A DNA stretch of 34,246 nucleotides from a virus (IMGVR_UViG_2529292882_000018:1-34246), one strand, 5' to 3'; shown: positions 17,001-32,951, numbered from the stretch's first letter. The notes: a model not told the origin generated them from the sequence alone. Numbers and translations are program-made.

Positions 17001-17602
17001 GTGGTGATATTTCCGGTGGTGCATGGGTAGACTGGCGAGCGCGTCCGGCTGGATTGTTGGTAGACTGTCAGGACTCACGAAATCAAGCATATAACATTTG
17101 GAAAGCTACTCATTGGGGCGAACAGCACCTTGCGGCGATGGGTGTTCATGCTGGCGGTGGTAATCCTCATGTTGTATTGCATGTGGGTGGGAATGATTAT
17201 GCATTTGCATTTAACGGTGATTTTACTGCTGGTGCTGCTGTATATTGTAACGACGTTTATATTCGTTCTGACCGTCGTCTGAAAATTAATGTTGAAGACT
17301 ACGAAGAGAATGCGGTGGATAAGGTAAATAAACTCAAAGTTAAAACCTATGATAAAGTTAAATCTCTTTCTGACCGCGAAGTTATCGGCCATGAGATTGG
17401 TATTATCGCACAGGATTTGCAAGAAGTATTACCGGAAGCTGTTAGCACTTCTAGTGTCGGATCTCAGGATAACCCAGAAGAAATTTTAACAATTTCAAAC
17501 TCCGCAGTGAACGCGCTTTTAATTAAAGCGGTCCAAGAAATGAGCGAAGAAAATAAAATCCTTCGTGAACGTCTTGCTGCAATTGAGGCTAAATTAGGGT
17601 AA
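14093..17602 (+). CDS. side tail fibre / tailspike-like protein with C-terminal intramolecular chaperone (S74-type) domain
   Basis: 1169 aa; N-terminal tandem ~21-aa KVD..IK..TD.TIAAN repeats; C-terminal SDRRLKINVED...IGIIAQDLQEV... matches the auto-cleaving chaperone domain known from T5 L-shaped fibre and K1F endosialidase. Confidence 0.8.
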   Translation: MQSIQFKRTNVSGKKPTPEQLQVGEVAINLKDHVIFTKDRDHEVVQISVSPETHAALESKVDANKQELDSTIAVNDRNIHAKVDEIKQTTDSTIAANHAEINNKVDVIKRETDATIEANKNKAASDLAGVKAELSDTINANKNAAAVATQELDTRINKKVDDIKSRTDATIASNDKAINDKVDLIKTETDRTIAANKVYAENQLTDTYNNLTGVIAANKQEAADNVAALTRDVEAKNTAIHSKVDNNKSYTDSELARLESRIDAADGSADGKYIKKHVNTYTDGYLLSKTANYFDDPNARNLDYFGAFRMNDLAGHIAMILHVPHPSGVNHARGFEFTYGSNPHATVRTYGYDELGNLSYSHRMYHEGDKPTPAEIGAYSKAEIDRMFQKTINFGVETGWFKIATAFIPQNDGRSLKIRLIGGNGWNVGQTGQCNIIELVIRTSNGSPKGINFVAYHHVSGYENQFCAINTGDDTYDIYAYYFEFTNMVMAEYQASSDVNLTVLDRPEYVGDKPVADHIYDAYTIHSFNSFSNRGTLNFAGNHQGQYDIEHMNEQPTNAKKMLRRFRSSALATIWHETVDDNAYRLATGGTDSGQQLLLTTTGLHVKRLTLDGGAAGGNAGIDIRRGPNEASHFNFMDYRTGQDVRNGWFGFGDLTTKDFIWCNDNGQNSINLIENGELHITGGKGQKIVMNSEVALSENARLAVKGGNYGLIFRNDGTSFHILTTDLKDSFGNWNNRRPFSYDFAEGGLDLGGTTTERCLHLGIDGSTRIEENLVFRSGSRQSMDYIEMIHWGNSNIARDNVLSMKDSKGFLAEFERVGGTNGVKTRFFGETFTDGTLYLNQMNNSSERFSINNWGNSEVGRAAVMEIGDSKGYHFYTERRTDNSLMFDVAGAFTVHGPSGITIKNSDGARHIWFRDNSDTEKAVIWATDEGILHIRNNHGGQFSHHFQGAMIKAGERVPYNSEYALIRGDISGGAWVDWRARPAGLLVDCQDSRNQAYNIWKATHWGEQHLAAMGVHAGGGNPHVVLHVGGNDYAFAFNGDFTAGAAVYCNDVYIRSDRRLKINVEDYEENAVDKVNKLKVKTYDKVKSLSDREVIGHEIGIIAQDLQEVLPEAVSTSSVGSQDNPEEILTISNSAVNALLIKAVQEMSEENKILRERLAAIEAKLG

Positions 17603-17641
17603 TTGGAAAGCGGGGCGAAAATCCCCGCTAAGGATTCTTAT

Positions 17642-17938
17642 ATGGGATATTGGGTAAGTAGTGAAATTAATACTAAAATCGATGCTTTAAAATGGCATGT
17701 ATTTGATATTCCTAACGGCTATGGTACTGCTCGTGCTGGTGTCGCTGTAATGCGTCATAATGCTGGTGGTGGGTGGTCTGATGCACATATTAACGTAGAT
17801 GGTTTGACCGTTGCTCGTCGTCGTGGTGGGACCAATTGGGGATCTACTATAAATTCGTTTGTTCCTGCTGGCTGCACCGTCTCCTTTGGTTTAGGGGGTG
17901 AAGGTGGTGTTGAATATTTTAAATTCATGGAGTTTTAA
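17642..17938 (+). CDS. small Gly-rich protein, paralog 1 of 3
   Basis: Track ORF starts at TTG 17603 inside a hairpin; ATG 17642 with AAGGA RBS gives MGYWV...FDIPNGYG. Confidence 0.55.
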   Translation: MGYWVSSEINTKIDALKWHVFDIPNGYGTARAGVAVMRHNAGGGWSDAHINVDGLTVARRRGGTNWGSTINSFVPAGCTVSFGLGGEGGVEYFKFMEF

Positions 17939-17940
17939 TT

Positions 17941-18246
17941 ATGGCTGGATGGATAAATCAAAGAATGTCAAACGCTATTAGTATTTGGGCTAATGGTGGA
18001 TATTTTGATATCCCCAACGGTTGGGTCACTGATTCATGCGGAATTGTCTTTGCTCATATGGAAGCCATTAACGGTGCTGGTGATCTTGATTCTGAATTGG
18101 CTGTAAATGGATTGATTGAATCAGGTCATCATGCTGGTGATGCTGGGAGTTGGGGCGCTAGTTCTTTAGTTGGCGCTGGTGCTACCGTTAGCTTTACATT
18201 GGGTAAAGGTAGTTTGCATTATTTCAAATTCAGGAGAATGCACTAA
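17941..18246 (+). CDS. small Gly-rich protein, paralog 2 of 3
   Basis: 101 aa, MAGWI...FDIPNGWV; DNA-level similarity to neighbours around the GATATTCCTAACGG block. Confidence 0.55.
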   Translation: MAGWINQRMSNAISIWANGGYFDIPNGWVTDSCGIVFAHMEAINGAGDLDSELAVNGLIESGHHAGDAGSWGASSLVGAGATVSFTLGKGSLHYFKFRRMH

Positions 18247-18548
18247 TGGCATTTTGGGTAGATGGCGCTTTGGGGAATAGGGCGGGTAAAGCAAATCAAG
18301 GATGGTTTGATATTCCTAACGGGTGGACAGCCGACGCTTTCGGGACTATTTCATTTTCCGCTCATTCTTCCGGTGGTGGCGGTGGTGACTCTGAATTGCT
18401 TATTCATGGTTTGTGTGTTTCTGGAAGTCATAAGGGTCATGATTGGGGACAGATTCATTCTTGTATTGCACCGCAAGGGGCGGTAATTACCGTTAGCACG
18501 AATAGAGGGATTGCTCATCTTCGTTATAGACGCTTGAGCAACCGCTAA
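18246..18548 (+). CDS. small Gly-rich protein, paralog 3 of 3
   Basis: 100 aa, MAFWV...FDIPNGWT; start overlaps previous stop (TAATG); AGGAG RBS. Confidence 0.55.
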   Translation: MAFWVDGALGNRAGKANQGWFDIPNGWTADAFGTISFSAHSSGGGGGDSELLIHGLCVSGSHKGHDWGQIHSCIAPQGAVITVSTNRGIAHLRYRRLSNR

Positions 18549-18602
18549 ATAAATAGAATTACGGGTATGTGCCCTATTGTTTAAAATAGAAGGAAAAGAA
18601 TA

Positions 18603-19155: not shown

Positions 19156-19464
19156 ATGAATATTAACGAAATGTTAGCCGCACTCTCTCCGAAACGCGAA
19201 TCTTTGACCATCGGTGGATTCACTTTCTATGCTCGCCCTATGTCAGTAAAAGAATTTAACGAACATGTTTTCAATACTGATAAAGAAGACCGTGATGAAC
19301 GCTCTATTCTTCGTTGTATTGAAGATGAAGACGGTAAGCCAGTATTTGAATCTATGGAACAAGTTAAGGCACTGTATACTAACGTTCGAAGTGAATTAAT
19401 CGGTTTGGTTGCTCAAGCATCATTGATGCAAGATCCGGCAGTAATTGAAAACGAGGTAAAGTAA
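19156..19464 (+). CDS. tail assembly chaperone (G-like)
   Basis: 102-aa ORF with AAGAGGA RBS, between tail tube and tape measure. Confidence 0.6.
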   Translation: MNINEMLAALSPKRESLTIGGFTFYARPMSVKEFNEHVFNTDKEDRDERSILRCIEDEDGKPVFESMEQVKALYTNVRSELIGLVAQASLMQDPAVIENEVK

Positions 19465-19847: not shown

Positions 19848-22277
19848 ATGACAAGACATATAGTAACAATAGAAGGGGATAATAAAGGTCTAAGGAGAAG
19901 TACCAATGAAGCCGCCGACCTTCTCGATCGTTTGTCTGAAAAGGCAAGTAATATTGATTTTGGTGGTGGCTTATCTGGTCTGACTGGATCTCTTCGTGGG
20001 ATCGCTGGCTCTGCTGGTTTGGCTGCTGGTGGTATCGGCTTAGTTGCGACCGCAGTGGTTGCAGCCGCTAAAGCTGGCGCGGAATACGTTAAACAGTATT
20101 CAGAAGTATCTAAGGCGACCGGACTCTCGATTGAATCCCTTCAAAGACTGGAAAAGGAATTTTCTGGTACTGGCTTAACAGTTGAAAAATTTGGCGATAT
20201 CAACAAAGACACCTTAGATAAAATGGGTGATGCGTGGGCTAATGGTGGTGGTATTGCCGATGACTTAGAATCGGTTGGTCTTAAGTTAGAAAACTATGCT
20301 CACTTCATGACAGATCCGCAAGGTGGTATGAAAGCGGCGATCCAAGTGTTCTATGACATGAAGAAAGCCGGAAAATCAATGGCTGAAATCAAGTTCATGA
20401 TGGAATCTTTAGCCAGTGATTCAAGCCATATGACCAGCCAGCTTGAGAAATATAATAGTGCTCAAGAGGCGATGATCGCTATTCAGAATCAATCTGTTAA
20501 CGTCACCGAAGAAAACGCTAAAAAATATGATAAATTTTCTCAAAATATCAATAAGCTGGAAAATAACCTGAAAGGGGTCGGCATGACCATTACTGGTCCG
20601 CTGGTTGATAGTTTAAACTGGTTATTTGACTGGTTTAATATTGATTGGGAAAAGAGTTCTCTATTCAGGGCATTAGATCGACTGAATAAAGAAGGCAAGA
20701 CCGCAACTGGCGGTATTCTTAACGCCAACCATAAAGACGCTCAAAAAATTATTGACAAGTACAATAAAGAAAAGCGTTGGAATAATCTGGCAGATTGGGA
20801 AAAGGCCGCGATCCGTGGTGCTGGTGTCGATCCTCGTACTGCTGGCTTTGATGTAGAAGCATATAAGAAACGTTTTGGTAATTCTTATAAGAAAAATGGC
20901 TCTCTGATTGTAGTCGATAACGGGGAACATCTAACCCGCAAGGCAGATCCTAATACTGATTTAACTCTACCAAATAAACCAGTAAGACCAGAATCATTGG
21001 GTAAGTCTGGTAATGAGAAGAAAGAAGAGGAAAAAGCCAAGAAGAAAGCGGAAGAGAAAGCTAAAAAGGCTAAGGAAGCCGCAGAAAAAGCACAGAAAGA
21101 ACGTGAGGATGCAATCAAGCGTCTGAATGCACTTGATGTTAAATTGCAAGGGCAGGTCGCCGCGTCTATTGCTTCTCAAAACAAGCAATTAGAATCCAGT
21201 TTGAAAGATTTGGACACTGCTTTAGATCTGGGCTTAATCTCTCAGCAAGACGCAGCCGCGAAACGCCAATCCTTAATCGATCAGAATACTGAAAACGTAT
21301 ACAAAATGGTTTTAGGTGCTGATCCGGTTGATGCTTTGAATGCCTTAACACAATTGCAACAAATCAGGGACAACGAGTTAGAAAGCCATAAACGGTTACT
21401 TGATGGTAAGGCTATCTCCTACGAAGAATATATGCGTCGTGTGAATGATACCGAACAAAGTTATTCGCAGATTGAAGATTCTTTGCATGGAATGGATGGT
21501 TTTAAAACCAATCAGTTGACCAATAGCTTAGACTATCAGGATTCAAATAACCCGTTTGCTAAATTTAATGCAATCGATAAAGAGAAATCGGAAGCGGAAC
21601 AAGATTATAAGACCGATAAACTCAAGATTGATGGGATCACCGATCCGGCTAAACGGATGGAAGCATTAGAAAAACTCAATGAAAACCATCAAAAACGAAT
21701 GGCTGCAATTGAAAAGAAATATGCTGATGCTCGCCAGTCAATAGCCGATGATATGTACGGCGGTTTTGCTGCTGCAATGACTCTCTTCGGGCAGGAAAAC
21801 ACTAAAGCTATGCAGATGGCTTTCAATGCTCATAAAGCATTCTCCATTGGACAAGCGACGGTGAACATGTGGACGGCTGCTACCGATGCATGGAACGATC
21901 CGACCAACGTAACCACAGGTCAAAAAATCGCTGCTGCTGCATTGGCTGTTTCTCAGAACATGGGGAACATCGCAAACATCAAGTCTACTAACGTTAGCGG
22001 TATGGCTCATGATGGTATTGATAACATCCCTCGTGAGGGTACATGGTTGCTTGATAAGGGTGAACGAGTAGTTGATCAGCGTACTAACGGTGATTTGAAA
22101 GACTTCTTATCTGCTCAAAAATCAGGTGGTGGTAACTCTCAGCCGATTGAAGTTAATGCGCCTTTGAACATTAACGGCAACGTTAATAGCTCAGACAAGA
22201 TGGTCATGGATGCTATCAAACGTCACGCTAAGTTAGTTGCTCAGGCGGTAGAAGACGCACAGCGCCGTAAGATGTAA
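19848..22277 (+). CDS. tail tape measure protein
   Basis: 809 aa, Gly/Ala-rich N-terminal region, long helical K/E/Q-rich middle, position after G/T pair. Confidence 0.85.
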   Translation: MTRHIVTIEGDNKGLRRSTNEAADLLDRLSEKASNIDFGGGLSGLTGSLRGIAGSAGLAAGGIGLVATAVVAAAKAGAEYVKQYSEVSKATGLSIESLQRLEKEFSGTGLTVEKFGDINKDTLDKMGDAWANGGGIADDLESVGLKLENYAHFMTDPQGGMKAAIQVFYDMKKAGKSMAEIKFMMESLASDSSHMTSQLEKYNSAQEAMIAIQNQSVNVTEENAKKYDKFSQNINKLENNLKGVGMTITGPLVDSLNWLFDWFNIDWEKSSLFRALDRLNKEGKTATGGILNANHKDAQKIIDKYNKEKRWNNLADWEKAAIRGAGVDPRTAGFDVEAYKKRFGNSYKKNGSLIVVDNGEHLTRKADPNTDLTLPNKPVRPESLGKSGNEKKEEEKAKKKAEEKAKKAKEAAEKAQKEREDAIKRLNALDVKLQGQVAASIASQNKQLESSLKDLDTALDLGLISQQDAAAKRQSLIDQNTENVYKMVLGADPVDALNALTQLQQIRDNELESHKRLLDGKAISYEEYMRRVNDTEQSYSQIEDSLHGMDGFKTNQLTNSLDYQDSNNPFAKFNAIDKEKSEAEQDYKTDKLKIDGITDPAKRMEALEKLNENHQKRMAAIEKKYADARQSIADDMYGGFAAAMTLFGQENTKAMQMAFNAHKAFSIGQATVNMWTAATDAWNDPTNVTTGQKIAAAALAVSQNMGNIANIKSTNVSGMAHDGIDNIPREGTWLLDKGERVVDQRTNGDLKDFLSAQKSGGGNSQPIEVNAPLNINGNVNSSDKMVMDAIKRHAKLVAQAVEDAQRRKM

Positions 22278-22328: not shown

Positions 22329-22889
22329 ATGTTCAAATCCAAAAATATTAAAATCACAGATTTTACTCTTAAATCAAAACAACCTTTCTTCAAGGCGCAA
22401 TCTATTTCTGGTAAATTTCAACGTCGCTTTACTGGCATTCATTTTTATGAAGCAGAATTTACAGCTAATTTCATGGCTCAGGATATTAACGAAGTAAAAG
22501 AATTTGTAGCACGTCACCTTTTTGGTCGTCCTTTCAGTGTGCCCCTGTCTTACTTTTCAAAATATACAGGTGATGTACGCCAGATGGTTACGGCTGCTGC
22601 TGGTACTGCTCGCGGTGGGCGTAAGGTGAGAATCTCCAACTTCACCGGAACACTGAAAGCGGGAACTATCATCCAGTTTGAGAACCACAAGAAAATCTAC
22701 ACGATCACCGAAGATGTGAAATCAGGTGGTGAAATGAAACTCTTCCCTAACTTGCGTCAGAACGTCCTGGCGGGTGAGGTGATCAAGTATCAGAACGTAG
22801 AAGGCGAATTTGTTCTCAAAACTGAAAACATCGATTGGAAGATCGCCCAGATTGGCAAGATGAAATTCGAATTAGTGGAGAATGTATAA
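22329..22889 (+). CDS. minor/distal tail protein (gpM-position)
   Basis: Track ORF starts at GTG 22293 within the hairpin loop; ATG at 22329 follows a GGGGG tract; 186 aa. Confidence 0.5.
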   Translation: MFKSKNIKITDFTLKSKQPFFKAQSISGKFQRRFTGIHFYEAEFTANFMAQDINEVKEFVARHLFGRPFSVPLSYFSKYTGDVRQMVTAAAGTARGGRKVRISNFTGTLKAGTIIQFENHKKIYTITEDVKSGGEMKLFPNLRQNVLAGEVIKYQNVEGEFVLKTENIDWKIAQIGKMKFELVENV

Positions 22890-23542
22890 TGGCAACTATT
22901 CAAGAATCATTCAGCAAACTATGCACTAATCTTGACTTCATCGAGGTCTACAACGACCAGACAGGTCAGAACGTGTCTAGATTGACGCTACCGCAGCTTT
23001 TCTCCACTGGATCGATGTTTCACATTATCGAAGTGATAACAGCGTCAGGGGACGTTCTACGGCTTACAGATGGGTATTTCGATTTGGACTATAACGGATT
23101 TACGTATCTCGCAACGGGTGATTTTCTTAAAATCTCATCGAATACCGAAGAGAAGGAGATCAACAACAACGGGATCAACGTAACTGTTTCTAACGTTCGC
23201 GAAGAATACATTACCCTGATTCGAAACAAGCAATTCGATAAATCTGATGTGAAAATCGAGATGGTTTTCCTTAACCCCAACACGGGCAAGGTTGAAACCA
23301 CTTACCCGGTTTTCCGTGGGGTAGTCGATTCCATCGGTATTAACATCGAACATGAAGATGATGAGTGTAAAAACGAATCAGAATTTCAGCTTAATAGTAT
23401 CTGGGAAGTTCTAGATAAAAACGCTCGTAGTCATGCCTCCGATGGTATCCACCGATCCTATGTTGGAAACGAGAACGATCTATTCTTCTCCCGTGCCGGG
23501 AAGTGGAATAGCGAAAGCAAGTGGCATTCATCGAAGAAATAA
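22889..23542 (+). CDS. minor tail protein, gpL-like
   Basis: Track ORF starts 22835; ATG 22889 overlaps upstream stop (TAATG) with GGAGA RBS; about 217 aa, close to lambda gpL size. Confidence 0.6.
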   Translation: MATIQESFSKLCTNLDFIEVYNDQTGQNVSRLTLPQLFSTGSMFHIIEVITASGDVLRLTDGYFDLDYNGFTYLATGDFLKISSNTEEKEINNNGINVTVSNVREEYITLIRNKQFDKSDVKIEMVFLNPNTGKVETTYPVFRGVVDSIGINIEHEDDECKNESEFQLNSIWEVLDKNARSHASDGIHRSYVGNENDLFFSRAGKWNSESKWHSSKK

Positions 23543-23588: not shown

Positions 23589-24008
23589 ATGCTAAAAACT
23601 AGGCTTATCACCGATTATATCAATTCTTTAATAGGTCAGGAGTTCGTTCAAGGCGAGAATGATTGCAATCTCATTGCATGTAAGATCATCGATATTCTCG
23701 CTGGTACTGACCTATATAATTCTCTTTATAAAAAATATTCAACTAAAGAAGAAGGCTTGAAAATCTGCAAAGAATTAAGCGGGTATTCAAATATCCTTCA
23801 ACCAATTAAGAAACATTTCAAATTAGTCACTGATGACTTACAGGACGGCGACTTACTGGTCACAGCCCACAAATTAGGGAACCGCAAATATTATTCCGTA
23901 GTTCCTCATTATTCCGGTTATGGCCTCGTTGAAGAAGATGGTATCTGGATGACCATTCCTGTTTCAGACATTGACTATGAACAAGTTTATAGATTCGGGG
24001 GTGAATAA
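23589..24008 (+). CDS. tail assembly protein, gpK-like with Cys/His (NlpC/P60-like) residues
   Basis: Track ORF starts 23433 overlapping upstream gene; ATG 23589 with GGAGG RBS; GENDCNLIACKI Cys block and downstream His. Confidence 0.5.
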   Translation: MLKTRLITDYINSLIGQEFVQGENDCNLIACKIIDILAGTDLYNSLYKKYSTKEEGLKICKELSGYSNILQPIKKHFKLVTDDLQDGDLLVTAHKLGNRKYYSVVPHYSGYGLVEEDGIWMTIPVSDIDYEQVYRFGGE

Positions 24009-27000
24009 TGGGATTTGAAGTATTGGTAGGCGCGGTTATTGCTGGTGCGTCTGCTGGGATGGCGGCAGCCGCAACATTTTCTGTTATGACCGCAGTCGCT
24101 ATCGGTATGGCTGCTGGTGCAATGACCTTGATCGCTTCCACTGTAGGCGCACCAAAAACACCGAAAGTACAAAGCCCAGATAATGCGGTGACACTAGGAA
24201 CATCAAACGATCCTAAGACAGTATTACCCGTTCTTTTCGGTACTACCCGAACTGGTGCAATCTGCGTTTACAAAGCAATTTCACAGCGTGAAAATAACAA
24301 ACTGGTACAAATTTTTGCTATTGCCGAAGGTGAGATCGATCACTTTAAAGCACTGCACATCGATAATAAAAATGTTCTCATTAGTCAGAATATGACAATT
24401 CGTGATGGCATTCTCGATAAAGGAAACATTAAAGACGAATATCGCAAAGTGTTAGAAGTCGAGTTTCGCACGGGTAAAAATCCTAACACTGCATTAGATC
24501 TTGCTAAACATCATTTGGGCGCTGATTGGGATGATCGGTATCAGGGTAACGGCATTGCGACCATGTGTATTGTTTTACGTCGTGATGACAAATCTTTGGC
24601 TGCTGGTGTTGATATTCTCCAGCCTAATAGCCAGGTAGCGGTCGATGTTATGGGCTTAAAAATCCGTAACCTCGAAACCAATGCTATTGAGGCTAGCACT
24701 AACGGCGTGGACCAGATTTTCCACTACCTAACAAATGAAAAATATGGATTATCCGTACCGATTGAAAACATTAACGTTGATTCATTCCTGAAAGTACGTA
24801 AGCAAGTACGCCAGATGGATTTGCATTCAAACGGTGCATGTGATCCGAACGCCAGCTTTAAAGAGAACTTGACTAGCCTTATGCAGACTTTCGGCGGGGT
24901 AATGTTCGAATCCTTTGGACGTATTACTCTGAAACTGGATGCTCCTGATATTGTTAAGCATACCTTCAATGAAGACAATATCATGATGGGAAAAGTATCA
25001 CTGAAAACAGGTGGCACTAACGGTTATTTCAATACCATTAACGCGATGTATCAAGAACCATCAATTGACTATTCCGAGCAAATGCTACGTTATCCGGCTG
25101 ATGCTGAAAACGATGCTACTATTCGTCAAGATGGTCGAATTATCGCTAAAGATATTGAATATCGTTTTGTTAAGTCTAAAGCCCAGATTGATAAACTCGC
25201 GAGCATTGAGCGAAATAAATCTCGTATCACTCAGGTTATCAGCTTTATGACTACTGACGCATTCACTGCCGAAGTTTGGGACGTTATCAGCGTAACCTAT
25301 GATGAATTGAAACTGAATAATTCACTTTGGCGCATTACTGCAATTGATCGTTCTATTGATTCTGGTATTGCTGGGATGATGACTATCACCGCTACAGAAT
25401 ATAATTCTCAGGTTTATACTGACCTGAACTATGCGGCGACTCCAGACAATAGACCTACTGGTTTACCGGATTCAATGACAGTACAGAAACCGACTAATTT
25501 CAGAATTAAGGCAACTGGTGAGACAATCCACGGTAAAAACGTAACTTTGACATGGGACGCACCGGAAGATTTTAACCGCTACGGTTTCCAGATTGATTAT
25601 CGTGTGAGTGGATCACCTAACTGGATTAAGCTGGGACAGACTTCACAGCAAATTTTCAATATCAATGCACTGGCAAAAGATCGCTCCTACGATTACCGCG
25701 TTTGTGCTTTCGGTATTATTGCTCGTTCCGAATGGGTGGAACTGGTTAACCAGAATCCAGAAGTTACCTATGAACTGCCTACGCCAGTGATCCGCATCAA
25801 AAATCAGGGTAGCTCACCTGGTACTTTCGAAGGCAATGATCTGATTATCGAATGGGAAAATCAGCAAGCCTTAGATGTGGTTATCAACGGTGAAGCTAAC
25901 AAGTTTAGTGACCTGTTTGAAGCATACATTATCAAGGTAACTAACAAGGCTGGTAAGTCTATTCAGTACCGTACCCGCGATCCTGAATCATGGACCTATA
26001 CGCTTGATATGAACCAGTTTAACGGCCTTTCCCGTGAATTGACGGTAGAAGTATCAGTCAAGGGCTATAACAACTCAGAGAGCGCCCCAGCGCGTTTAGT
26101 GGCTATTAACCCACAGCATAAGCCAATGAAAGGTTTTAGTGCGCGTGGTGGCTTTAATACTGCGTTTGTTAGCTGGGCGGATGACGTAGAACATGACTAT
26201 GCAGGGTCAATCATCCAGTATGCAACCGATAACACTTTCTCAGATGCAAGGGCAGTAAGCACGAATAGTGTTAGCCATACTTCCTTTGATTTGGCTGACG
26301 GTGATTATTATATCCGTGGTGCTCACTATGATATTTTCGGTATGGATGATGCTGTTTGGTCTGAACCGTATTTCATGCAAATGAAATCTACCATTAGTTG
26401 GGACGATCAGGACAAAGAAGCACTGGAAGACCTGATTGGTTTACAAGACCGCTTAGATGAAACTATCGCGGATGCTATTGCTCAAGCTGGCGCTAATGCC
26501 GATGCTAAAATTGATGCAATGCATAAGCAAATCACTACCGAAACAGGGCAGACGGTCCAAGCCTCAGCCAATACCTTAAAGAGTCTGATTGCTACCAGCG
26601 AGCAAGCTAGCTCCACTAAGATTGATCAGGTTAAAGCTGAACTGAAAGGCGATATCACCAAAGAAGTTAGCGCATCCGCTACTACCCTGAAACAAGCAAT
26701 TGCTACCAGTGAGGCAGCAAGCGCAAGTAAGATTGATCAAGTTCGGGTAGAAATGGATGGCAAGATTGCTGGTGTGAATCAGGAAGCAGATGTAAAAATC
26801 GATGCTTTGAAGGGAACCATTAACAGCAAATATAATCTGGCAGTTAATGCAGATGGTCGCGTGGCTGGTATTCATATGAGCGCAACCAACGATCCGGCAG
26901 AACCGACGAGAATCATCTTTACGGCTGATAAAATCGCGGTAGCTCCACAAGACGGATCAGAAGTTTGTCCGTTTGGCATCGAAGATAACAAAGTTTATCT

Positions 27001-27784
27001 CGATAATGCGATGATTCGTAATGCTGCAATTGGCACAGCCCAGATTAGTGATGCTAGTATCACCACGGCTAAGATCGGCACAGCCCAGATTAACGGCGCT
27101 CACATCCAACACGCACAGATCGGAACAGGTCATATCATTGATGGCTCTATCGATAATGCTAAAATTGGTAACTATATCCAGTCTTATAACTGGAATGGTA
27201 ACGATGGATGGTATATCGGCAAAGATGGCACTTGTCATTTTAGACACGCTAATATTCGTGGTCATTTGGTGGCTGATTCCGGAGAAATGAACAACGTAAC
27301 GATTAATTCAAGTTGCCGCATTTTGGGTATGCTTGATGCTAATCAGGTGCGTGGTGACTTCGTGAAAGCTATTGGTCGTCGATTCCCACATTGGGACGAA
27401 AACCCATCATTGGGCTATCCCGGTTATCCGCAAGGTACAATCACTGTTCGAATTGAAGATGATCACCCGTTTGATCGTCAGATTATCGTTCCGGCTATTA
27501 GCTTTGGTGGTCTTAATGCGCGTGAAGGCTCGAATAACAATACTTACTATGATAACTGTCGCTTGATTGTTCGCAAGAACGGTGCTGAATTATATAACCG
27601 TGCATATGGTAGACAGACTGGATTGTATAGTGCTGTTATTGATATGCCAGCCGGACACGGACCAGTTACGCTAACTTTTGAAGTAAGTTCAAGCGCAATC
27701 AACAACTGGACTCCCAGCACATGGATCAGCGATCTTTCTGTAATTGTTACTAAGAAAGCCGCTACGGGTATTTCTGTTTCTTAA
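24008..27784 (+). CDS. central tail fibre / host specificity protein, lambda J-like
   Basis: 1258 aa; C-terminal blocks DDHPFDRQIIVP, DMPAGHGPVTLTF and TKKAATGISV resemble the lambda J C-terminus as recalled; hydrophobic Gly/Ala-rich N-terminal 45 aa. Confidence 0.85.
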   Translation: MGFEVLVGAVIAGASAGMAAAATFSVMTAVAIGMAAGAMTLIASTVGAPKTPKVQSPDNAVTLGTSNDPKTVLPVLFGTTRTGAICVYKAISQRENNKLVQIFAIAEGEIDHFKALHIDNKNVLISQNMTIRDGILDKGNIKDEYRKVLEVEFRTGKNPNTALDLAKHHLGADWDDRYQGNGIATMCIVLRRDDKSLAAGVDILQPNSQVAVDVMGLKIRNLETNAIEASTNGVDQIFHYLTNEKYGLSVPIENINVDSFLKVRKQVRQMDLHSNGACDPNASFKENLTSLMQTFGGVMFESFGRITLKLDAPDIVKHTFNEDNIMMGKVSLKTGGTNGYFNTINAMYQEPSIDYSEQMLRYPADAENDATIRQDGRIIAKDIEYRFVKSKAQIDKLASIERNKSRITQVISFMTTDAFTAEVWDVISVTYDELKLNNSLWRITAIDRSIDSGIAGMMTITATEYNSQVYTDLNYAATPDNRPTGLPDSMTVQKPTNFRIKATGETIHGKNVTLTWDAPEDFNRYGFQIDYRVSGSPNWIKLGQTSQQIFNINALAKDRSYDYRVCAFGIIARSEWVELVNQNPEVTYELPTPVIRIKNQGSSPGTFEGNDLIIEWENQQALDVVINGEANKFSDLFEAYIIKVTNKAGKSIQYRTRDPESWTYTLDMNQFNGLSRELTVEVSVKGYNNSESAPARLVAINPQHKPMKGFSARGGFNTAFVSWADDVEHDYAGSIIQYATDNTFSDARAVSTNSVSHTSFDLADGDYYIRGAHYDIFGMDDAVWSEPYFMQMKSTISWDDQDKEALEDLIGLQDRLDETIADAIAQAGANADAKIDAMHKQITTETGQTVQASANTLKSLIATSEQASSTKIDQVKAELKGDITKEVSASATTLKQAIATSEAASASKIDQVRVEMDGKIAGVNQEADVKIDALKGTINSKYNLAVNADGRVAGIHMSATNDPAEPTRIIFTADKIAVAPQDGSEVCPFGIEDNKVYLDNAMIRNAAIGTAQISDASITTAKIGTAQINGAHIQHAQIGTGHIIDGSIDNAKIGNYIQSYNWNGNDGWYIGKDGTCHFRHANIRGHLVADSGEMNNVTINSSCRILGMLDANQVRGDFVKAIGRRFPHWDENPSLGYPGYPQGTITVRIEDDHPFDRQIIVPAISFGGLNAREGSNNNTYYDNCRLIVRKNGAELYNRAYGRQTGLYSAVIDMPAGHGPVTLTFEVSSSAINNWTPSTWISDLSVIVTKKAATGISVS

Positions 27785-27802
27785 AATTTAATTTTTATAA
27801 TT

Positions 27803-27843
27803 AATCCCGCTTAATTCTTTGTGGTTAGGCGGGATTATTTTTA
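27803..27843 (+). terminator. stem-loop with T-rich tract after J-like gene
   Basis: AATCCCGC ... GCGGGATT inverted repeat followed by ATTTTTAT. Confidence 0.55.
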
Positions 27844-29437: not shown

Positions 29438-29791
29438 ATGTTAAGTAAGCATTTTTCTCGCAAGGAATTTAAATGTAAATGCGGAAAATGTGATTATGAT
29501 ACAATCGACGCTGAATTACTGGTGATTCTTGAGGATGTACGAGAGCACTTCGGTAAACCAGTGATTATTAACAGTGGCAACCGTTGCCCGACTCATAACA
29601 AGAATGTAGGCGGGGCAGCCAATAGCTATCACGTTCGAGGCCGCGCGGCTGACATTGTTATCAAGGGTGTCTCGCCTGATATTGTTCATGCTTATCTTGA
29701 TGGGAAATATCCTACTCAATACGGCTTAGGAAAATATAAAACCTTTACGCATATTGATTCCAGATCAAAAAAATCACGGTGGAATGGATAA
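29438..29791 (+). CDS. endolysin, peptidase M15-type
   Basis: 117 aa; SGNRCPTHNKNVGGAANSYHVRGRAADI and THIDSR fit the zinc-binding H/D/H pattern of M15 peptidase endolysins. Confidence 0.8.
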   Translation: MLSKHFSRKEFKCKCGKCDYDTIDAELLVILEDVREHFGKPVIINSGNRCPTHNKNVGGAANSYHVRGRAADIVIKGVSPDIVHAYLDGKYPTQYGLGKYKTFTHIDSRSKKSRWNG

Positions 29792-30155
29792 AACAAAAGC
29801 GCCTCTGGTGGGCGCTTTTTTGTTAGAATATGCTGGCGACGTTAGCTATATTTCTGACCATTTTTTCATTATAGACAAATATACCGCAGATGATAAAGTG
29901 GTATTCGACGAAGTTGATCCGTCTCTGGTTGAAGCAATGAAAGAACCTGAGATCGTCATTGAAGAAACAAAAGAAGAATCTCCGGCAATTGAACCAGTGG
30001 TCGAAGAAGTTACGTCAGATGTTGAAGAAGCACCGGAAGTTAAAGTAGAATCTCCGGTAGCAAACATTTTCTCTGACGAAGCAGAGCATCGTTCTCCTGC
30101 ACATGATACTGATTCATTTTGTGATCTTACTGGTTTCCAAAACTACAATAATTAA
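29754..30155 (+). CDS. acidic Glu/Pro/Val-rich hypothetical protein, start uncertain
   Basis: Track ORF starts at TTG 29754 and runs through the terminator; in-frame GTG 29898 or ATG 29937 are alternative starts. Confidence 0.35.
   Translation: MIPDQKNHGGMDKTKAPLVGAFLLEYAGDVSYISDHFFIIDKYTADDKVVFDEVDPSLVEAMKEPEIVIEETKEESPAIEPVVEEVTSDVEEAPEVKVESPVANIFSDEAEHRSPAHDTDSFCDLTGFQNYNN
29798..29822 (+). terminator. intrinsic terminator after endolysin
   Basis: AGCGCC-TCTGGTG-GGCGCT hairpin followed by TTTTTTG. Confidence 0.75.
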
Positions 30156-31271: not shown

Positions 31272-32951
31272 TTAAATTCCAAATTCCTGTAATGGACCTG
31301 GTATTTCCTCTTCTGGTTTCCAGTTCTTATCTGTCAGCATGTCTAAACATGGATGCAAAACAAGCCCGTTACTTTCCAGAATCTGTCTATCATTGATAGT
31401 TTTCAAATCAATGAATATCCGGCCTTTCCTCGTTCCTCTTGAATTTTCTATTACAACTCTCTGGGTCTTTCCATCGATGTATTCCAGTACAAACAAGTTT
31501 TTGTTTCTGTCAATCCTGCTACACCCGATCCGCTTTAGAGCTTGCTTAATCTTAAACCGGACCTTTAGTCGTTCCTCGTTATAAACATCTTCTAAATCAA
31601 ATTCTGCGAGCTTCTCCCAGCCTTGAGAGTCCACAGAATACATTTCCTCTTCTGCCATCTTGATCTGATTGTAGAGTGTTTCACGCTCGCTATTGAGGGT
31701 AGTAATCTGATCGGCTAGCTCCTTCGTTGCTCCTGTCATAGCAGAAAGGGCAATCAGGTTATCAATCTTGCGTGATATCTCATCAACCTGTACTTTCAAA
31801 GCCGGAACCGGATTAGCCTTATCCTCAGCAATCCAGATTTTATCAGCCAGCAATTGCAATACAGCTTTCTCTAATTGATCCCCTCGAAAACTCCAGTTTG
31901 GATGCTCGCAATCAAGTCTACGTGAACGGGTCGCATCACATGTATAACGATACTGGTCAGAACGTTTGTTTGTTCCCTTCACTTTAACCATAGCGCAACC
32001 GCAATGATCACATTTCAATAGGCCAATGCCACTAAGCAGGGGGATCGGTTTAGCTTCTTCCTTGTCTCCAAAGTTCCATGCTCTAGCACCAATATTTTTC
32101 TTAAGGTGATAGAACGTAGCATCATCAATAACACGAGGGTAATAATCCTTTAACTCATAGTTAACGCCATCTACAGAGACTTCCTTGATACCAATCAAAG
32201 CGCGGGTATGGAACAACCTTTCAACCATTGCCCGTGACCATTTTGAATGCTTCTTATTACTAACCGCTGGTGGCGGTGTATATGTCTCGTTAAGGTGATC
32301 CAGTATTTCGGCGGTTGAACGTCCATTCTTCCGTAATTCCACAATCTCCTGAACAACAGGGAAGTACACCGGATGAGGCAGCACATAACCGGAAGTGGTA
32401 TCAGTCCACCACATATTCTTTCCAACTTCCTCGATAGCCACTGCCGGATTTTGTGGATTTTCTTGATGAGCTTTAATCTTAATCAATGCGCTTGAGTTAG
32501 TACGATTGCGCTTAGTCTGGCTTTCCTCATTACCACGGATGAATAAAAGGATGGAGAACATCAGGTCCATCGGGTTAGCGGTAACAGTATCCAGCGAGTA
32601 GATCTTGTTATCCATGCCAGTAACAATGGTTATTCCCCTACGGATGATTGAAAGGAATAACTCCTGCGCACTGACAATATCGGCACGGGATAAACGGTCC
32701 AAGTTTTCGATGAATAGCCAGCTACCAACAGGAACGGATCTACCTATTGCATCAAGGAAACGAGATAGCGCCCCTGTTTTGGAGTTAGCACCTTTAAACG
32801 CAGATACACCCAGATCCTGATAATCATTTACCAGTTCAAGGTCATACTTTGCCGCAATCTCTCTCGCCATCCTGATTTGTCGTTCATAACTCGAACCATC
32901 ATTCTGACGCATAGACGAGAAGCGAATATACGAATATAGTTTAGTTTTCAT
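31272..32951 (-). CDS. large serine recombinase
   Basis: 559 aa; N-terminal YIRFSSMRQ serine-recombinase catalytic motif and ENLDRLSR block; CDHCGC...C...C zinc-ribbon; C-terminal coiled-coil. Confidence 0.85.
   Translation of the reverse strand: MKTKLYSYIRFSSMRQNDGSSYERQIRMAREIAAKYDLELVNDYQDLGVSAFKGANSKTGALSRFLDAIGRSVPVGSWLFIENLDRLSRADIVSAQELFLSIIRRGITIVTGMDNKIYSLDTVTANPMDLMFSILLFIRGNEESQTKRNRTNSSALIKIKAHQENPQNPAVAIEEVGKNMWWTDTTSGYVLPHPVYFPVVQEIVELRKNGRSTAEILDHLNETYTPPPAVSNKKHSKWSRAMVERLFHTRALIGIKEVSVDGVNYELKDYYPRVIDDATFYHLKKNIGARAWNFGDKEEAKPIPLLSGIGLLKCDHCGCAMVKVKGTNKRSDQYRYTCDATRSRRLDCEHPNWSFRGDQLEKAVLQLLADKIWIAEDKANPVPALKVQVDEISRKIDNLIALSAMTGATKELADQITTLNSERETLYNQIKMAEEEMYSVDSQGWEKLAEFDLEDVYNEERLKVRFKIKQALKRIGCSRIDRNKNLFVLEYIDGKTQRVVIENSRGTRKGRIFIDLKTINDRQILESNGLVLHPCLDMLTDKNWKPEEEIPGPLQEFGI

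What the first reader, a model, noticed from the sequence alone, without database searches (positions are those of the whole stretch)
24008..27784. J-like central fibre with lambda-type C-terminal receptor-binding signature and a hydrophobic N-terminal segment
The C-terminal ~120 aa carry blocks that match what I recall of the lambda J receptor-binding end, which would point to an outer-membrane porin receptor. The first ~45 aa are an unusual Gly/Ala-rich hydrophobic segment and no separate gpI-like gene is present, so a gpI-like function may be fused. Internal repeats (TLK.AIATSE.AS.KIDQV twice) are also present.
Basis: partly seen in the sequence, partly recalled or inferred. Interest (0 to 1): 0.4.

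Follow-up and report, generated by a model that had tools for sequence, protein, structure and literature searches.

The report
Prophage tail-tip protein: fused gpI–J
This gene encodes the tail-tip hub and central fibre of an uncharacterised E. coli prophage. It ends in a lambda-J-type receptor-binding domain and starts with the hydrophobic "plug" that lambda encodes separately as the second half of gpI, so it is an informative mosaic of known parts rather than a new kind of machine.

Summary
Window 24008-27784 (+) is one intact 1258-aa ORF.

- **Receptor-binding end.** Residues 1123-1258 match Pfam Ig_GpJ_C (E=2e-35). Residues 1073-1257 are 41% identical to lambda J. The last ~190 residues (1068-1258) are 49% identical to the OmpC-binding "A8" gpJ, solved with OmpC in PDB 9wcb.
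- **N-terminus.** Residues 1-47 are 45% Gly+Ala, carry one charged residue and form two hydrophobic helices. A profile of residues 1-116 has lambda gpI residues 117-220 as its best hit in the PDB (E=3e-7; hhalign 95.9%). T5 pb3 residues 262-304, just after its plug, come next.
- **No separate gpI or gpK.** The ubiquitin-like half is absent.
- **Middle.** Residues ~119-800 fold like a siphophage baseplate hub plus three FN3 domains (T5 pb3, lambda J, RcGTA megatron, Chi).
- **Repeat.** The 37-aa repeat is real and varies in copy number.
- **Context.** The gene order is GTA-like: Dit, DUF2163 hub, DUF6950, this gene, terminator. It sits in a prophage found in 57 of 5426 complete E. coli genomes.

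The receptor is probably a trimeric porin, with OmpC the best guess, but this is untested. I rate it a new member of a known kind, of modest interest.

The parts
24008..27784 (+). Whole gene: 1258-aa tail-tip hub plus central fibre protein (fused gpI C-half, hub, J-type fibre and receptor-binding domain)
   Evidence: ORF list and translation. A 100% identical protein is in NCBI as 'phage tail tip protein [Escherichia coli]' (P0001).
24008..24148 (+). Residues 1-47: Gly/Ala-rich, uncharged, two predicted helices (3-17, 26-46) with GxxxG-type spacing. Counterpart of lambda gpI helices H1/H2 and analogous to the RcGTA megatron iris/penetration domain.
   Evidence: Hydropathy and composition. AF2 helices at low confidence. 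Profile alignment to gpI 117-156. Conserved in homologues down to 38% overall identity.
24149..24361 (+). Residues 48-118: gpI-like plug and beta-strand segment (APKTPKVQSPDN...VLPVLFGTTRTG) running into the strand that matches the N-terminus of lambda J and T5 pb3 (IFAIAEGEIDHF)
   Evidence: BLASTP against gpI 156-223, E=1e-6. Profile against PDB: gpI E=3e-7, T5 pb3 262-304 E=9e-6. Lambda J N-terminus 'VIDAISEGPIEG'.
24362..25477 (+). Residues ~119-490: baseplate hub domains (HDII, HDIII and HDIV type)
25478..26407 (+). Residues ~491-800: three consecutive FN3-like beta-sandwich domains
   Evidence: AF2 secondary structure. Many FN3 tandem hits. Weak Pfam fn3 at 506-575.
26408..26797 (+). Residues ~801-930: alpha-helical shaft containing a tandem 37-aa repeat (DNA 26555-26776) whose copy number varies
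   Evidence: Repeat statistics. P0057 lacks one unit. Long helices in the AF2 model of residues 796-1258.
26798..27373 (+). Residues ~931-1122: Phage_Tail_Tip (DUF1983), the central straight fibre. It includes eleven A-x-I-x-x pentapeptide repeats (residues 1003-1054, DNA 27014-27169) that lambda J lacks.
   Evidence: Pfam PF09327 E=4.5e-17. hhalign against lambda J leaves a gap there. Ile at every fifth position, 11 times.
27374..27781 (+). Residues 1123-1258: Ig-like receptor-binding domain of the lambda J type
   Evidence: Pfam Ig_GpJ_C E=2.2e-35. 41% identity to lambda J and 49% to A8 gpJ over the last ~190 residues. Foldseek: 8xcj_F E=1.5e-21 and 9wcb_F with target-normalised TM-score 0.73. 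This is the most variable region among close relatives.
27802..27837 (+). Terminator-like hairpin plus T-run directly after the stop codon
   Evidence: 15-bp stem followed by TTTTTAT.
23589..24008 (+). Upstream gene: DUF6950 protein (139 aa) with an NlpC/P60-like 'GENDCNLIA' motif. It occupies the position of RcGTA g14 or the C-half of lambda gpK.
   Evidence: Pfam DUF6950 E=3e-12. Lambda K gives a weak DUF6950 hit. Sequence. PGAP start. The peptidase assignment is inference.
22889..23542 (+). Upstream gene: DUF2163 / phiJL001 Gp84_N hub protein (217 aa), presumed HDI partner in the role of lambda gpL or RcGTA g13
   Evidence: Pfam PF09931, 26.1 bits against a cut-off of 26. phrog_2048 tail protein E=3e-27. 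PGAP name 'DUF2163'.
22329..22889 (+). Distal tail protein
   Evidence: phrog_1302 distal tail protein E=2.6e-16. Weak pb9 B-domain hit.
19848..22277 (+). Tape measure protein (809 aa). By analogy with lambda and T5, its C-terminus would sit on the plug.
   Evidence: phrog_13674 E=4e-64. The interaction is inferred from PMC10721106 and PMC12617516.

Best explanation
The gene encodes the trimeric tail-tip protein of a temperate E. coli siphophage. This single chain does what lambda divides between the C-terminal half of gpI and gpJ.

Shown:
- Residues 1-~100 are homologous to gpI residues ~117-220.
- Residues ~119-800 have the baseplate-hub fold plus three FN3 domains.
- Residues ~800-1122 are a J-type helical shaft and straight fibre.
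- Residues 1123-1258 are a J-type Ig-like receptor-binding domain.
- The gene is last in a Dit, DUF2163-hub, DUF6950 tail-tip operon.

Inferred, by analogy with the solved lambda, T5 and RcGTA tips:
- In the virion the three N-terminal modules sit inside the hub cone. There they plug the tube beneath the C-terminus of the tape measure protein.
- The C-terminal trimer binds a trimeric outer-membrane porin, most likely OmpC and otherwise LamB or OmpF.
- Spreading of the receptor-binding domains propagates up the fibre. The helical shaft refolds, the FN3 strings peel away and the hub domains swing out.
- The plug is released, and its two uncharged Gly/Ala-rich helices insert into the outer membrane. 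This anchors or lines the exit channel for the tape measure protein and the DNA.
For: C-terminal homology:
- Pfam Ig_GpJ_C E=2.2e-35 and Phage_Tail_Tip E=4.5e-17.
- Lambda J 41% identity, E=3e-34.
- A8 gpJ 49% identity, E=5e-64.
- Foldseek top hits are lambda and A8 central fibres, including the A8-OmpC complex 9wcb.

N-terminal homology to gpI:
- BLASTP E=1e-6.
- A 13-sequence profile against 177,635 PDB sequences has gpI 117-220 as its top hit (E=3e-7), followed by T5 pb3 262-304 (E=9e-6).
- hhalign probability 95.9%, E=5.6e-9.
- Composition matches: 45% versus 46% Gly+Ala, 1 versus 0 charged residues, and two hydropathy peaks in each.

Fused state is the rule in this lineage: 13 of 14 hits in 1.84 billion representatives carry the module at the N-terminus of proteins or fragments of 110-1593 aa, nine of them 650 aa or longer.

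No separate I or K gene.

Operon context and terminator.

Mechanistic templates:
- Lambda gpI plug and predicted transmembrane helices H1/H2, and the open and closed states (PMC11101478, PMC10721106, PMC12617516).
- T5 pb3 plug (bioRxiv 10.1101/2022.09.20.507954).
- RcGTA megatron iris/penetration domain (PMC7296036).

Receptor use in the family: LamB, OmpC and OmpF (PMC11338833, PMC11336670).
Against: - Nothing here was tested experimentally. No virion, receptor or expression data exist for this prophage.
- The N-terminal 71 residues are modelled at pLDDT below 50. A monomer model cannot show a plug.
- A single-sequence search of 1.84 billion proteins did not recover gpI at E<=1e-3. The gpI link rests on a targeted pairwise test and on profile tests against the PDB.
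- No sequence similarity to the RcGTA iris domain was found.
- The hub is only weakly similar to lambda J in sequence (hhalign E=0.004; Pfam Phage-tail_3 below cut-off).
- The receptor-binding domain is only 41-49% identical to domains of known specificity, and specificity in this family can flip with single substitutions.
- The prophage also carries a T-even-like side fibre that may dominate host range.
Confidence: 0.8

Rival explanations
1. The receptor-binding domain uses LamB exactly as lambda J does, so the reader's 'lambda-type' label applies literally.
For: Same Pfam family and 41% identity to lambda J. The best Foldseek hit is the gpJ-LamB complex 8xcj_F.
Against: The domain is closer to the OmpC-binding A8 gpJ (49% identity, E=3.7e-50 against 8.6e-34). 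The receptor-binding domain is highly polymorphic among near-identical E. coli prophages: 57-59% identity where the hub is 98-99%. From my own knowledge, that pattern fits a polymorphic target such as OmpC better than the conserved LamB.
Confidence: 0.2
2. The central fibre tip binds a non-porin outer-membrane protein or a sugar, or acts only as a scaffold. In that case host recognition is carried by the T-even-like side fibre or by a small protein encoded downstream, as in T1-like phages.
For: In Drexlerviridae the true receptor-binding protein is encoded downstream of J (bioRxiv 10.64898/2026.04.02.716166). This prophage has a 1169-aa gp37-like side fibre. Small ORFs of unknown function follow the gene.
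Against: A complete Ig_GpJ_C domain is present, and in lambda and A8 this domain alone binds the porin (PMC11101478; PDB 9wcb). A strong terminator-like hairpin separates the gene from the downstream ORFs. T1-type J proteins lack this domain.
Confidence: 0.15
3. The N-terminal resemblance to gpI is a compositional artefact or convergence. On this reading the segment is a generic membrane anchor, signal-like peptide or assembly tether, not a plug homologue.
For: The hydrophobic part is low-complexity. AF2 confidence there is below 50. gpI was not recovered in the 1.84-billion-protein search.
Against: The BLASTP match lies in the non-hydrophobic part, residues 48-107 against gpI 156-223. It includes the conserved VLPV(L/V)(Y/F)G..R.G motif, which is shared with T5 pb3 at the topologically equivalent position. 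gpI is the top hit of the profile in the whole PDB. The order is colinear: hydrophobic helices, then a Pro/Lys-rich linker, then the motif.
Confidence: 0.06
4. The gene belongs to a defective, cryptic prophage and no longer makes a functional tail.
For: No cultured phage closer than 38% identity exists in the phage collection. One E. coli copy of the region is interrupted by IS1 (H48).
Against: The ORF is intact and 97-100% conserved in dozens of genomes. Terminase, portal, capsid, tail, lysis and recombinase genes are all present. Receptor-binding alleles and repeat number vary in frame, as expected for a gene under selection.
Confidence: 0.1

Closest known systems
Lambda gpJ (tip attachment protein / central tail fibre; PDB 8IYK, 8XCJ)
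   Different: No detectable sequence identity over the first ~800 aa. There are three FN3 domains rather than lambda's specific FNIII-A, Ig_J and Ig_J_second. It has a 37-aa tandem repeat and eleven A-x-I-x-x repeats that lambda lacks. It carries the gpI C-half at its N-terminus. Its neighbours are Dit, DUF2163 and DUF6950, not M, L, K and I.
Lambda gpI (tail tip assembly / 'insertion' protein)
   Same: Residues 1-~100 correspond to gpI ~117-220: two Gly/Ala-rich hydrophobic helices, the plug and beta strands carrying the VLPVLYG.R.G motif.
   Different: It is not a separate polypeptide. It lacks the ubiquitin-like N-terminal domain (Pfam Lambda_tail_I). No JAB-domain partner like the gpK N-terminus is present in the window.
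RcGTA g15 'megatron' with g13 hub and g14 peptidase (PDB 6TBA/6TEH; PMC7296036)
   Different: No sequence similarity to the RcGTA iris domain was detected. Megatron ends in a fibre-binding domain, not a J-type fibre and receptor-binding domain.
T5 pb3 baseplate hub protein (PDB 7ZHJ)
   Same: Best Foldseek match (E=2e-33). The motif IPVVYG...AFAEGEIDGF directly after the pb3 plug aligns with residues ~72-113 here.
   Different: pb3 also contains HDI in the same chain. Its plug is a beta-hairpin, not Gly/Ala helices. It stops after two FN3 domains, with the fibre (pb4) and receptor-binding protein (pb5) as separate proteins.
A8 gpJ chimera (Brödel et al. 2024, PMC11338833; PDB 9WCA/9WCB with OmpC)
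   Same: Closest receptor-binding domain of known specificity: 49% identity over 189 aa, with the same Ig-like fold.
   Different: Half the residues differ, including an 8-residue insertion (PSLGYPGY) here. Specificity cannot be transferred at this distance.
Escherichia phage DCP80 protein XNX25186 (PQ671644)
   Same: The only phage-collection protein similar along most of its length (38% identity over residues 29-1119). It has the same hydrophobic N-terminus and motif.
   Different: It has an unrelated C-terminal domain in place of Ig_GpJ_C, and it is uncharacterised.

Membership tests
Lambda gpJ-type central tail fibre | C-terminal Ig-like receptor-binding domain (Pfam PF12421 Ig_GpJ_C) | tested here: met
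   122 bits against a cut-off of 26.2, residues 1123-1258. 41% identity to lambda J. Foldseek hits to 8xcj, 9wca and 9wcb.
Lambda gpJ-type central tail fibre | Phage_Tail_Tip (PF09327) straight-fibre segment preceding the receptor-binding domain | tested here: met
   62.6 bits against a cut-off of 22, residues 931-1092. hhalign against J 846-1125 gives probability 99.1%.
Lambda gpJ-type central tail fibre | Hub domains HDII-HDIV (Pfam Phage-tail_3) at the N-terminus | tested here: met
Lambda gpJ-type central tail fibre | Lambda-specific FNIII-A_GpJ, Ig_J and Ig_J_second domains | tested here: not met
   These Pfam families hit lambda J strongly but not this protein. Three generic FN3-like domains are present instead.
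Lambda gpJ-type central tail fibre | Gene context M-L-K-I-J with separate gpI | tested here: not met
   The upstream genes are Dit, DUF2163 and DUF6950. Lambda I, K, L and M find no separate gene.
Lambda gpJ-type central tail fibre | Binds a trimeric outer-membrane porin (LamB, OmpC or OmpF) | not testable with these tools
   This needs adsorption, delivery or binding assays.
Lambda gpI (tail tip assembly protein I) | C-terminal half: hydrophobic helices H1/H2, plug and beta strands | tested here: met
   Profile against the PDB has gpI 117-220 as top hit, E=3e-7. hhalign probability 95.9%. BLASTP E=1e-6.
Lambda gpI (tail tip assembly protein I) | N-terminal ubiquitin-like domain (Pfam PF06805 Lambda_tail_I) | tested here: not met
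   PF06805 covers gpI 14-97 and has no hit in this protein or its neighbours. phmmer of gpI matches only its residues 118-213.
Lambda gpI (tail tip assembly protein I) | Separate polypeptide of about 220 aa | tested here: not met
   The module is the N-terminus of the 1258-aa chain.
RcGTA megatron / split baseplate hub (g13 + g15) | Hydrophobic tube-closing domain at the N-terminus of the HDII-IV protein | tested here: inconclusive
RcGTA megatron / split baseplate hub (g13 + g15) | Partner hub protein with the DUF2163 / phiJL001 Gp84_N attachment domain encoded upstream | tested here: met
   PF09931 scores 26.1 bits against a cut-off of 26, which is marginal. phrog_2048 E=3e-27. PGAP names it DUF2163.
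RcGTA megatron / split baseplate hub (g13 + g15) | Small NlpC/P60 peptidase gene between hub and megatron | tested here: inconclusive
   A DUF6950 protein sits in that position. It has a 'GENDC' motif, and lambda K gives a weak DUF6950 hit. There is no direct NlpC/P60 match and no PDB sequence hit.
T5 pb3-type single-chain baseplate hub protein | HDI to HDIV all in one chain | not tested
   Foldseek aligns 727-743 columns to pb3, but HDI presumably lies in the DUF2163 protein. That protein was not modelled.

The most novel reading that the evidence does not exclude
This lineage may be a sequence-level bridge between three tail tips: lambda gpI C-half, the segment flanking the T5 pb3 plug, and the N-terminus of GTA-type hubs. 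On this reading they are one ancestral tube-plug and membrane-insertion module, and an originally continuous hub chain has been cut at different places in different phages.

Here the plug is covalently joined to the hub, and both the ubiquitin-like domain of gpI and the JAB domain of gpK are missing together. That pattern would suggest lambda's Ubl-JAB pair is an accessory needed only when the hydrophobic plug is made as a free polypeptide, for example as a cleavable carrier.
Probability: 0.25. Interest if true: 0.5.

Novelty: new member of a known kind. Interest (0 to 1): 0.3.

Why it matters
- **Central-fibre module of an uncharacterised prophage lineage.** The prophage occurs in about 1% of complete E. 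coli genomes, with relatives in Salmonella, Providencia, Klebsiella and Enterobacter. The work shows that a lambda-type receptor-binding domain can sit on a hub that is lambda-J-like only in fold, in a GTA-like tail-tip operon.
- **Sequence evidence for the gpI plug equivalence.** Earlier proposals that lambda gpI's plug equals part of the T5 or GTA hub rested on structure and gene order. This adds sequence statistics, and it gives a natural fused version in which to test the plug and membrane-insertion model.
- **Material for retargeting.** The swappable receptor-binding alleles and the length-variable shaft are potential parts for retargeting lambda-based delivery particles, as was done with A8 gpJ.

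Tried and rejected
- **Pfam on the N-terminal 140 aa** found nothing relevant. Pfam's gpI family models only the ubiquitin-like half, so this silence is uninformative.
- **Single-sequence phmmer of residues 1-115 against 1.84 billion representatives** gave 14 hits. One was a spurious repeat protein. The other 13 were fused N-termini, and gpI was not reached.
- **Profile search of the 5.8-billion-protein collection** returned mostly short N-terminal fragments of hub proteins from short contigs. It gave no clear stand-alone gpI-like proteins, so I could not measure how often the module is split versus fused.
- **hhalign of the hub region against the single lambda J sequence** was weak (E=0.004, probability 8%). 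Fold comparison was needed instead.
- **hhalign of the full alignment** reported only the C-terminal match.
- **PDB sequence searches with the DUF2163 and DUF6950 proteins** gave no useful hits.
- **PHROGs and Pfam on the small ORFs** downstream of the gene and around it gave nothing.
- **Recent acquisition of the receptor-binding domain from lambdoid prophages was rejected.** Lambdoid J genes in E. coli match its DNA only at 68-76% identity over parts of the region. Megablast of 7 kb found only the 57 genomes that carry this prophage.
- **No paper on this prophage, or on DUF6950 together with DUF2163,** was found. The window holds no tRNA genes.

Full report
**What is there.**
Window 24008-27784 (+) is a single ATG-initiated ORF of 1258 aa. 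Its start codon overlaps the stop of the upstream gene (TAATG) and follows a GGGGGTG purine run. A 15-bp hairpin with a T-run lies 18 nt after its stop codon. The gene therefore closes a translationally coupled tail operon.

An identical protein is in NCBI as "phage tail tip protein [Escherichia coli]", and near-identical copies are common in public assemblies. The surrounding 7 kb occurs in 57 of 5426 complete E. coli genomes, always on the chromosome. In strain PE15 the element lies next to a truncated hicB and ydcR and carries a large serine recombinase. The window is thus a prophage.

No cultured phage is close. The best match in the phage collection is Escherichia phage DCP80 at 38% identity over residues 29-1119. 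Next come ~100-kb Vibrio phages at 23%. Lambdoid J proteins match only from residue 845-898 onward.

**The C-terminus.**
- Pfam places Ig_GpJ_C on residues 1123-1258 (E=2.2e-35) and Phage_Tail_Tip on 931-1092 (E=4.5e-17).
- BLASTP against lambda J, taken from NC_001416, gives 41% identity over residues 1073-1257 = J 952-1131, E=3e-34.
- A search of solved structures ranks "A8 gpJ 713" (E=3.7e-50) above lambda J (E=8.6e-34). Identity to A8 is 49%.
- A8 is a lambda gpJ chimera whose C-terminus came from a natural E. coli gpJ variant, and it uses OmpC (PMC11338833). PDB 9wcb is that fibre bound to OmpC.
- An AF2 model of residues 796-1258 is confident only in the receptor-binding domain. Its best structural matches are the lambda and A8 central fibres.

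The receptor cannot be read off the sequence. Members of this domain family use LamB, OmpC or OmpF, and phage Φ21 gains use of OmpC with a single substitution (PMC11101478, PMC11336670). A trimeric porin is the reasonable class and OmpC the best single guess.

Among close E. coli relatives the receptor-binding domain is the mosaic hot spot. P0061 and P0063 are 98-99% identical over residues 119-800 but only 57-59% over 1123-1258. The Salmonella and DCP80 homologues carry unrelated C-termini. Lambdoid J genes match the receptor-binding DNA only at 68-76%, so the link to lambda is old, not a recent swap.

**The N-terminus.**
Residues 1-47 are 45% Gly+Ala and carry one charged residue. They contain the only strongly hydrophobic stretches of the protein. 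AF2 draws two helices there (3-17 and 26-46) at low confidence.

[quoted passage not shown] Residues 159-175 form the plug that closes the tube under the C-terminus of the tape measure protein. The remaining strands interleave with the gpJ hub domains. On binding of LamB the plug opens and H1/H2 vanish from the map (PMC11101478, PMC10721106, PMC12617516).

Three tests link the two proteins:
- BLASTP of the first 140 aa against gpI aligns residues 48-107 with gpI 156-223 (35% identity, E=1e-6 for that single comparison).
- I built a profile from this protein and 12 diverse relatives (alignment A2). Against all PDB sequences its best hit is gpI 117-220 (E=3e-7). The next distinct protein is T5 (and DT57C) pb3 at residues 262-304 (E=6-9e-6), directly after the pb3 plug hairpin whose tip is at residues 230-238 (bioRxiv 10.1101/2022.09.20.507954).
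- hhalign gives probability 95.9% and E=5.6e-9.

The gpI segment 101-156 has the same composition: 46% Gly+Ala, no charged residue and two hydropathy peaks. The strand IFAIAEGEIDHF (residues 102-113) matches T5 pb3 YAFAEGEIDGF and lambda J residues 26-37, VIDAISEGPIEG. Lambda's I/J gene boundary therefore falls inside what is one chain here.

No separate gpI, gpK, gpL or gpM homologue was detectable in the six-frame translation of the window. Pfam could not have seen any of this, because its gpI family covers only the ubiquitin-like residues 14-97.

The fused state is the norm for this lineage. In 1.84 billion representative proteins, 13 of 14 hits carry the module at the N-terminus of proteins or fragments of 110-1593 aa, nine of them 650 aa or longer. 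The fourteenth hit is spurious.

**The middle.**
An AF2 model of residues 1-800 has mean pLDDT 74.9, mostly above 75 from residue 72 onward.
- Foldseek best matches: T5/DT57C pb3 (E~1e-33), JBD30, lambda J (1e-23), T1 and Chi tip proteins.

The model shows three FN3-like domains at about residues 491-800. By sequence the hub is only marginally lambda-like (Pfam Phage-tail_3 below cut-off; hhalign E=0.004).

**The shaft and fibre.**
Residues ~801-930 are predicted helical. They contain a genuine tandem 37-aa repeat, with 22 of 37 positions identical and none of 200 shuffles reaching that. The DNA repeat is spaced 111 nt. Variant P0057 lacks exactly one unit, and other relatives have none. In lambda this helical shaft refolds on receptor binding (PMC11101478), so copy number probably sets fibre length.

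Residues 1003-1054 carry eleven A-x-I-x-x pentapeptides that lambda J lacks.

**Context.**
The upstream genes are:
- tail assembly chaperones;
- an 809-aa tape measure protein;
- a distal tail protein;
- a DUF2163 / phiJL001-Gp84_N hub protein;
- a DUF6950 protein.

This is the RcGTA order g12-g13-g14-g15. There the "megatron" g15 begins with a 46-residue iris/penetration domain proposed to close the tube and then insert into the outer membrane (PMC7296036). DUF6950 has a GENDC motif reminiscent of NlpC/P60 peptidases, and lambda K gives a weak DUF6950 hit. I treat the peptidase role as inference.

**How it most likely works.**
- Shown: the homologies and the architecture described above.
- Inferred: three copies form the tip. 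Their N-terminal modules plug the lumen beneath the tape measure C-terminus, and the C-terminal trimer binds a trimeric porin. The signal travels up the fibre, the FN3 strings and hub domains open, and the Gly/Ala helices insert into the outer membrane to anchor or line the exit.

**Comparison and novelty.**
Every part has a solved homologue, and the fused layout is the GTA/T5 layout. The protein is therefore a new, uncharacterised member of the siphophage hub and central-fibre kind, assembled as a mosaic of a GTA-like hub and a lambda-like fibre tip.

[quoted passage not shown] A further observation is that gpI's ubiquitin-like domain and gpK's JAB domain are both absent where the plug is fused.

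**Verdict.**
Interest is modest at 0.3.

Noticed in passing
window 15179-18564: This 3.4-kb stretch is 93.6% identical in DNA to the virulent T4-like Krischvirus phage vB_EcoM_G37-3, and 86-95% identical to KFS-EC, kvi, phiS and ESh27. It covers most of the 1169-aa side-fibre gene (14093-17602) and three small ORFs (17603-18548). The C-terminus of the fibre protein matches T-even distal long tail fibre families, and the protein has Gp34_trimer and Peptidase_S74 chaperone domains. In G37-3 the matching genes sit where gp37/gp38 would be. This points to recent exchange of host-recognition genes between a temperate siphophage and T-even-like myophages. The fibre gene lies oddly between the head genes and the tail tube gene.
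   Followed up: partly
window 29881-30138: A 258-bp segment is 96-98% identical to the 'inhibitor of prohead protease' gene of the same group of T4-like phages (Ec_Makalu, GEC-3S, kvi, G37-3). The ORF that holds it (29754-30155) has no Pfam or PHROG match.
   Followed up: partly
window 27014-27169 (residues 1003-1054): There are eleven consecutive pentapeptide repeats A-x-I-x-x, with Ile at every fifth position, inside the straight fibre. Lambda J lacks them. They give weak hits to pentapeptide-repeat proteins. They probably add rungs to the beta-prism.
   Followed up: partly
window 27374-27781, compared with P0061, P0063, P0070 and others: Among E. coli prophage copies that are 98-99% identical in the hub, the receptor-binding domain drops to 55-59% identity. 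Several distinct alleles exist, some with and some without the PSLGYPGY insertion.
   Followed up: partly
window 31272-32951 (-) and L002 32239-32355: A 559-aa large serine recombinase (Resolvase, Recombinase and Zn_ribbon_recom domains) lies at the prophage end. In strain PE15 the element abuts a truncated hicB antitoxin gene beside ydcR, which suggests integration into hicB.
   Followed up: partly
window 23589-24008: The DUF6950 protein carries a 'GENDCNLIA' motif resembling the catalytic Cys region of NlpC/P60 peptidases, and lambda gpK weakly hits DUF6950. If it is the gpK/g14 equivalent, it lacks gpK's JAB domain.
   Followed up: partly
window 10277-12277: The 666-aa capsid protein matches both 'major head protein' and, over its first half, 'major head and protease protein' PHROG families. 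This suggests a fused N-terminal scaffold or protease-like region.
   Followed up: no
L001 (PQ671644, phage DCP80): The 141-kb DCP80 record is classified as Straboviridae/Gaprivervirus. Yet next to T4-type genes such as endonuclease VII it carries a probable siphophage-type tail-tip module: an 804-aa ORF where a tape measure gene would sit, followed by a fused gpI-J-like hub. This may be a chimeric assembly or a misclassification.
   Followed up: no
L002 17157-17465 (= window 19156-19464): RefSeq names this 102-aa protein 'cytochrome'. By position and a weak Phage_TAC_13 hit it is a tail assembly chaperone, so the name is probably an annotation error.
   Followed up: no
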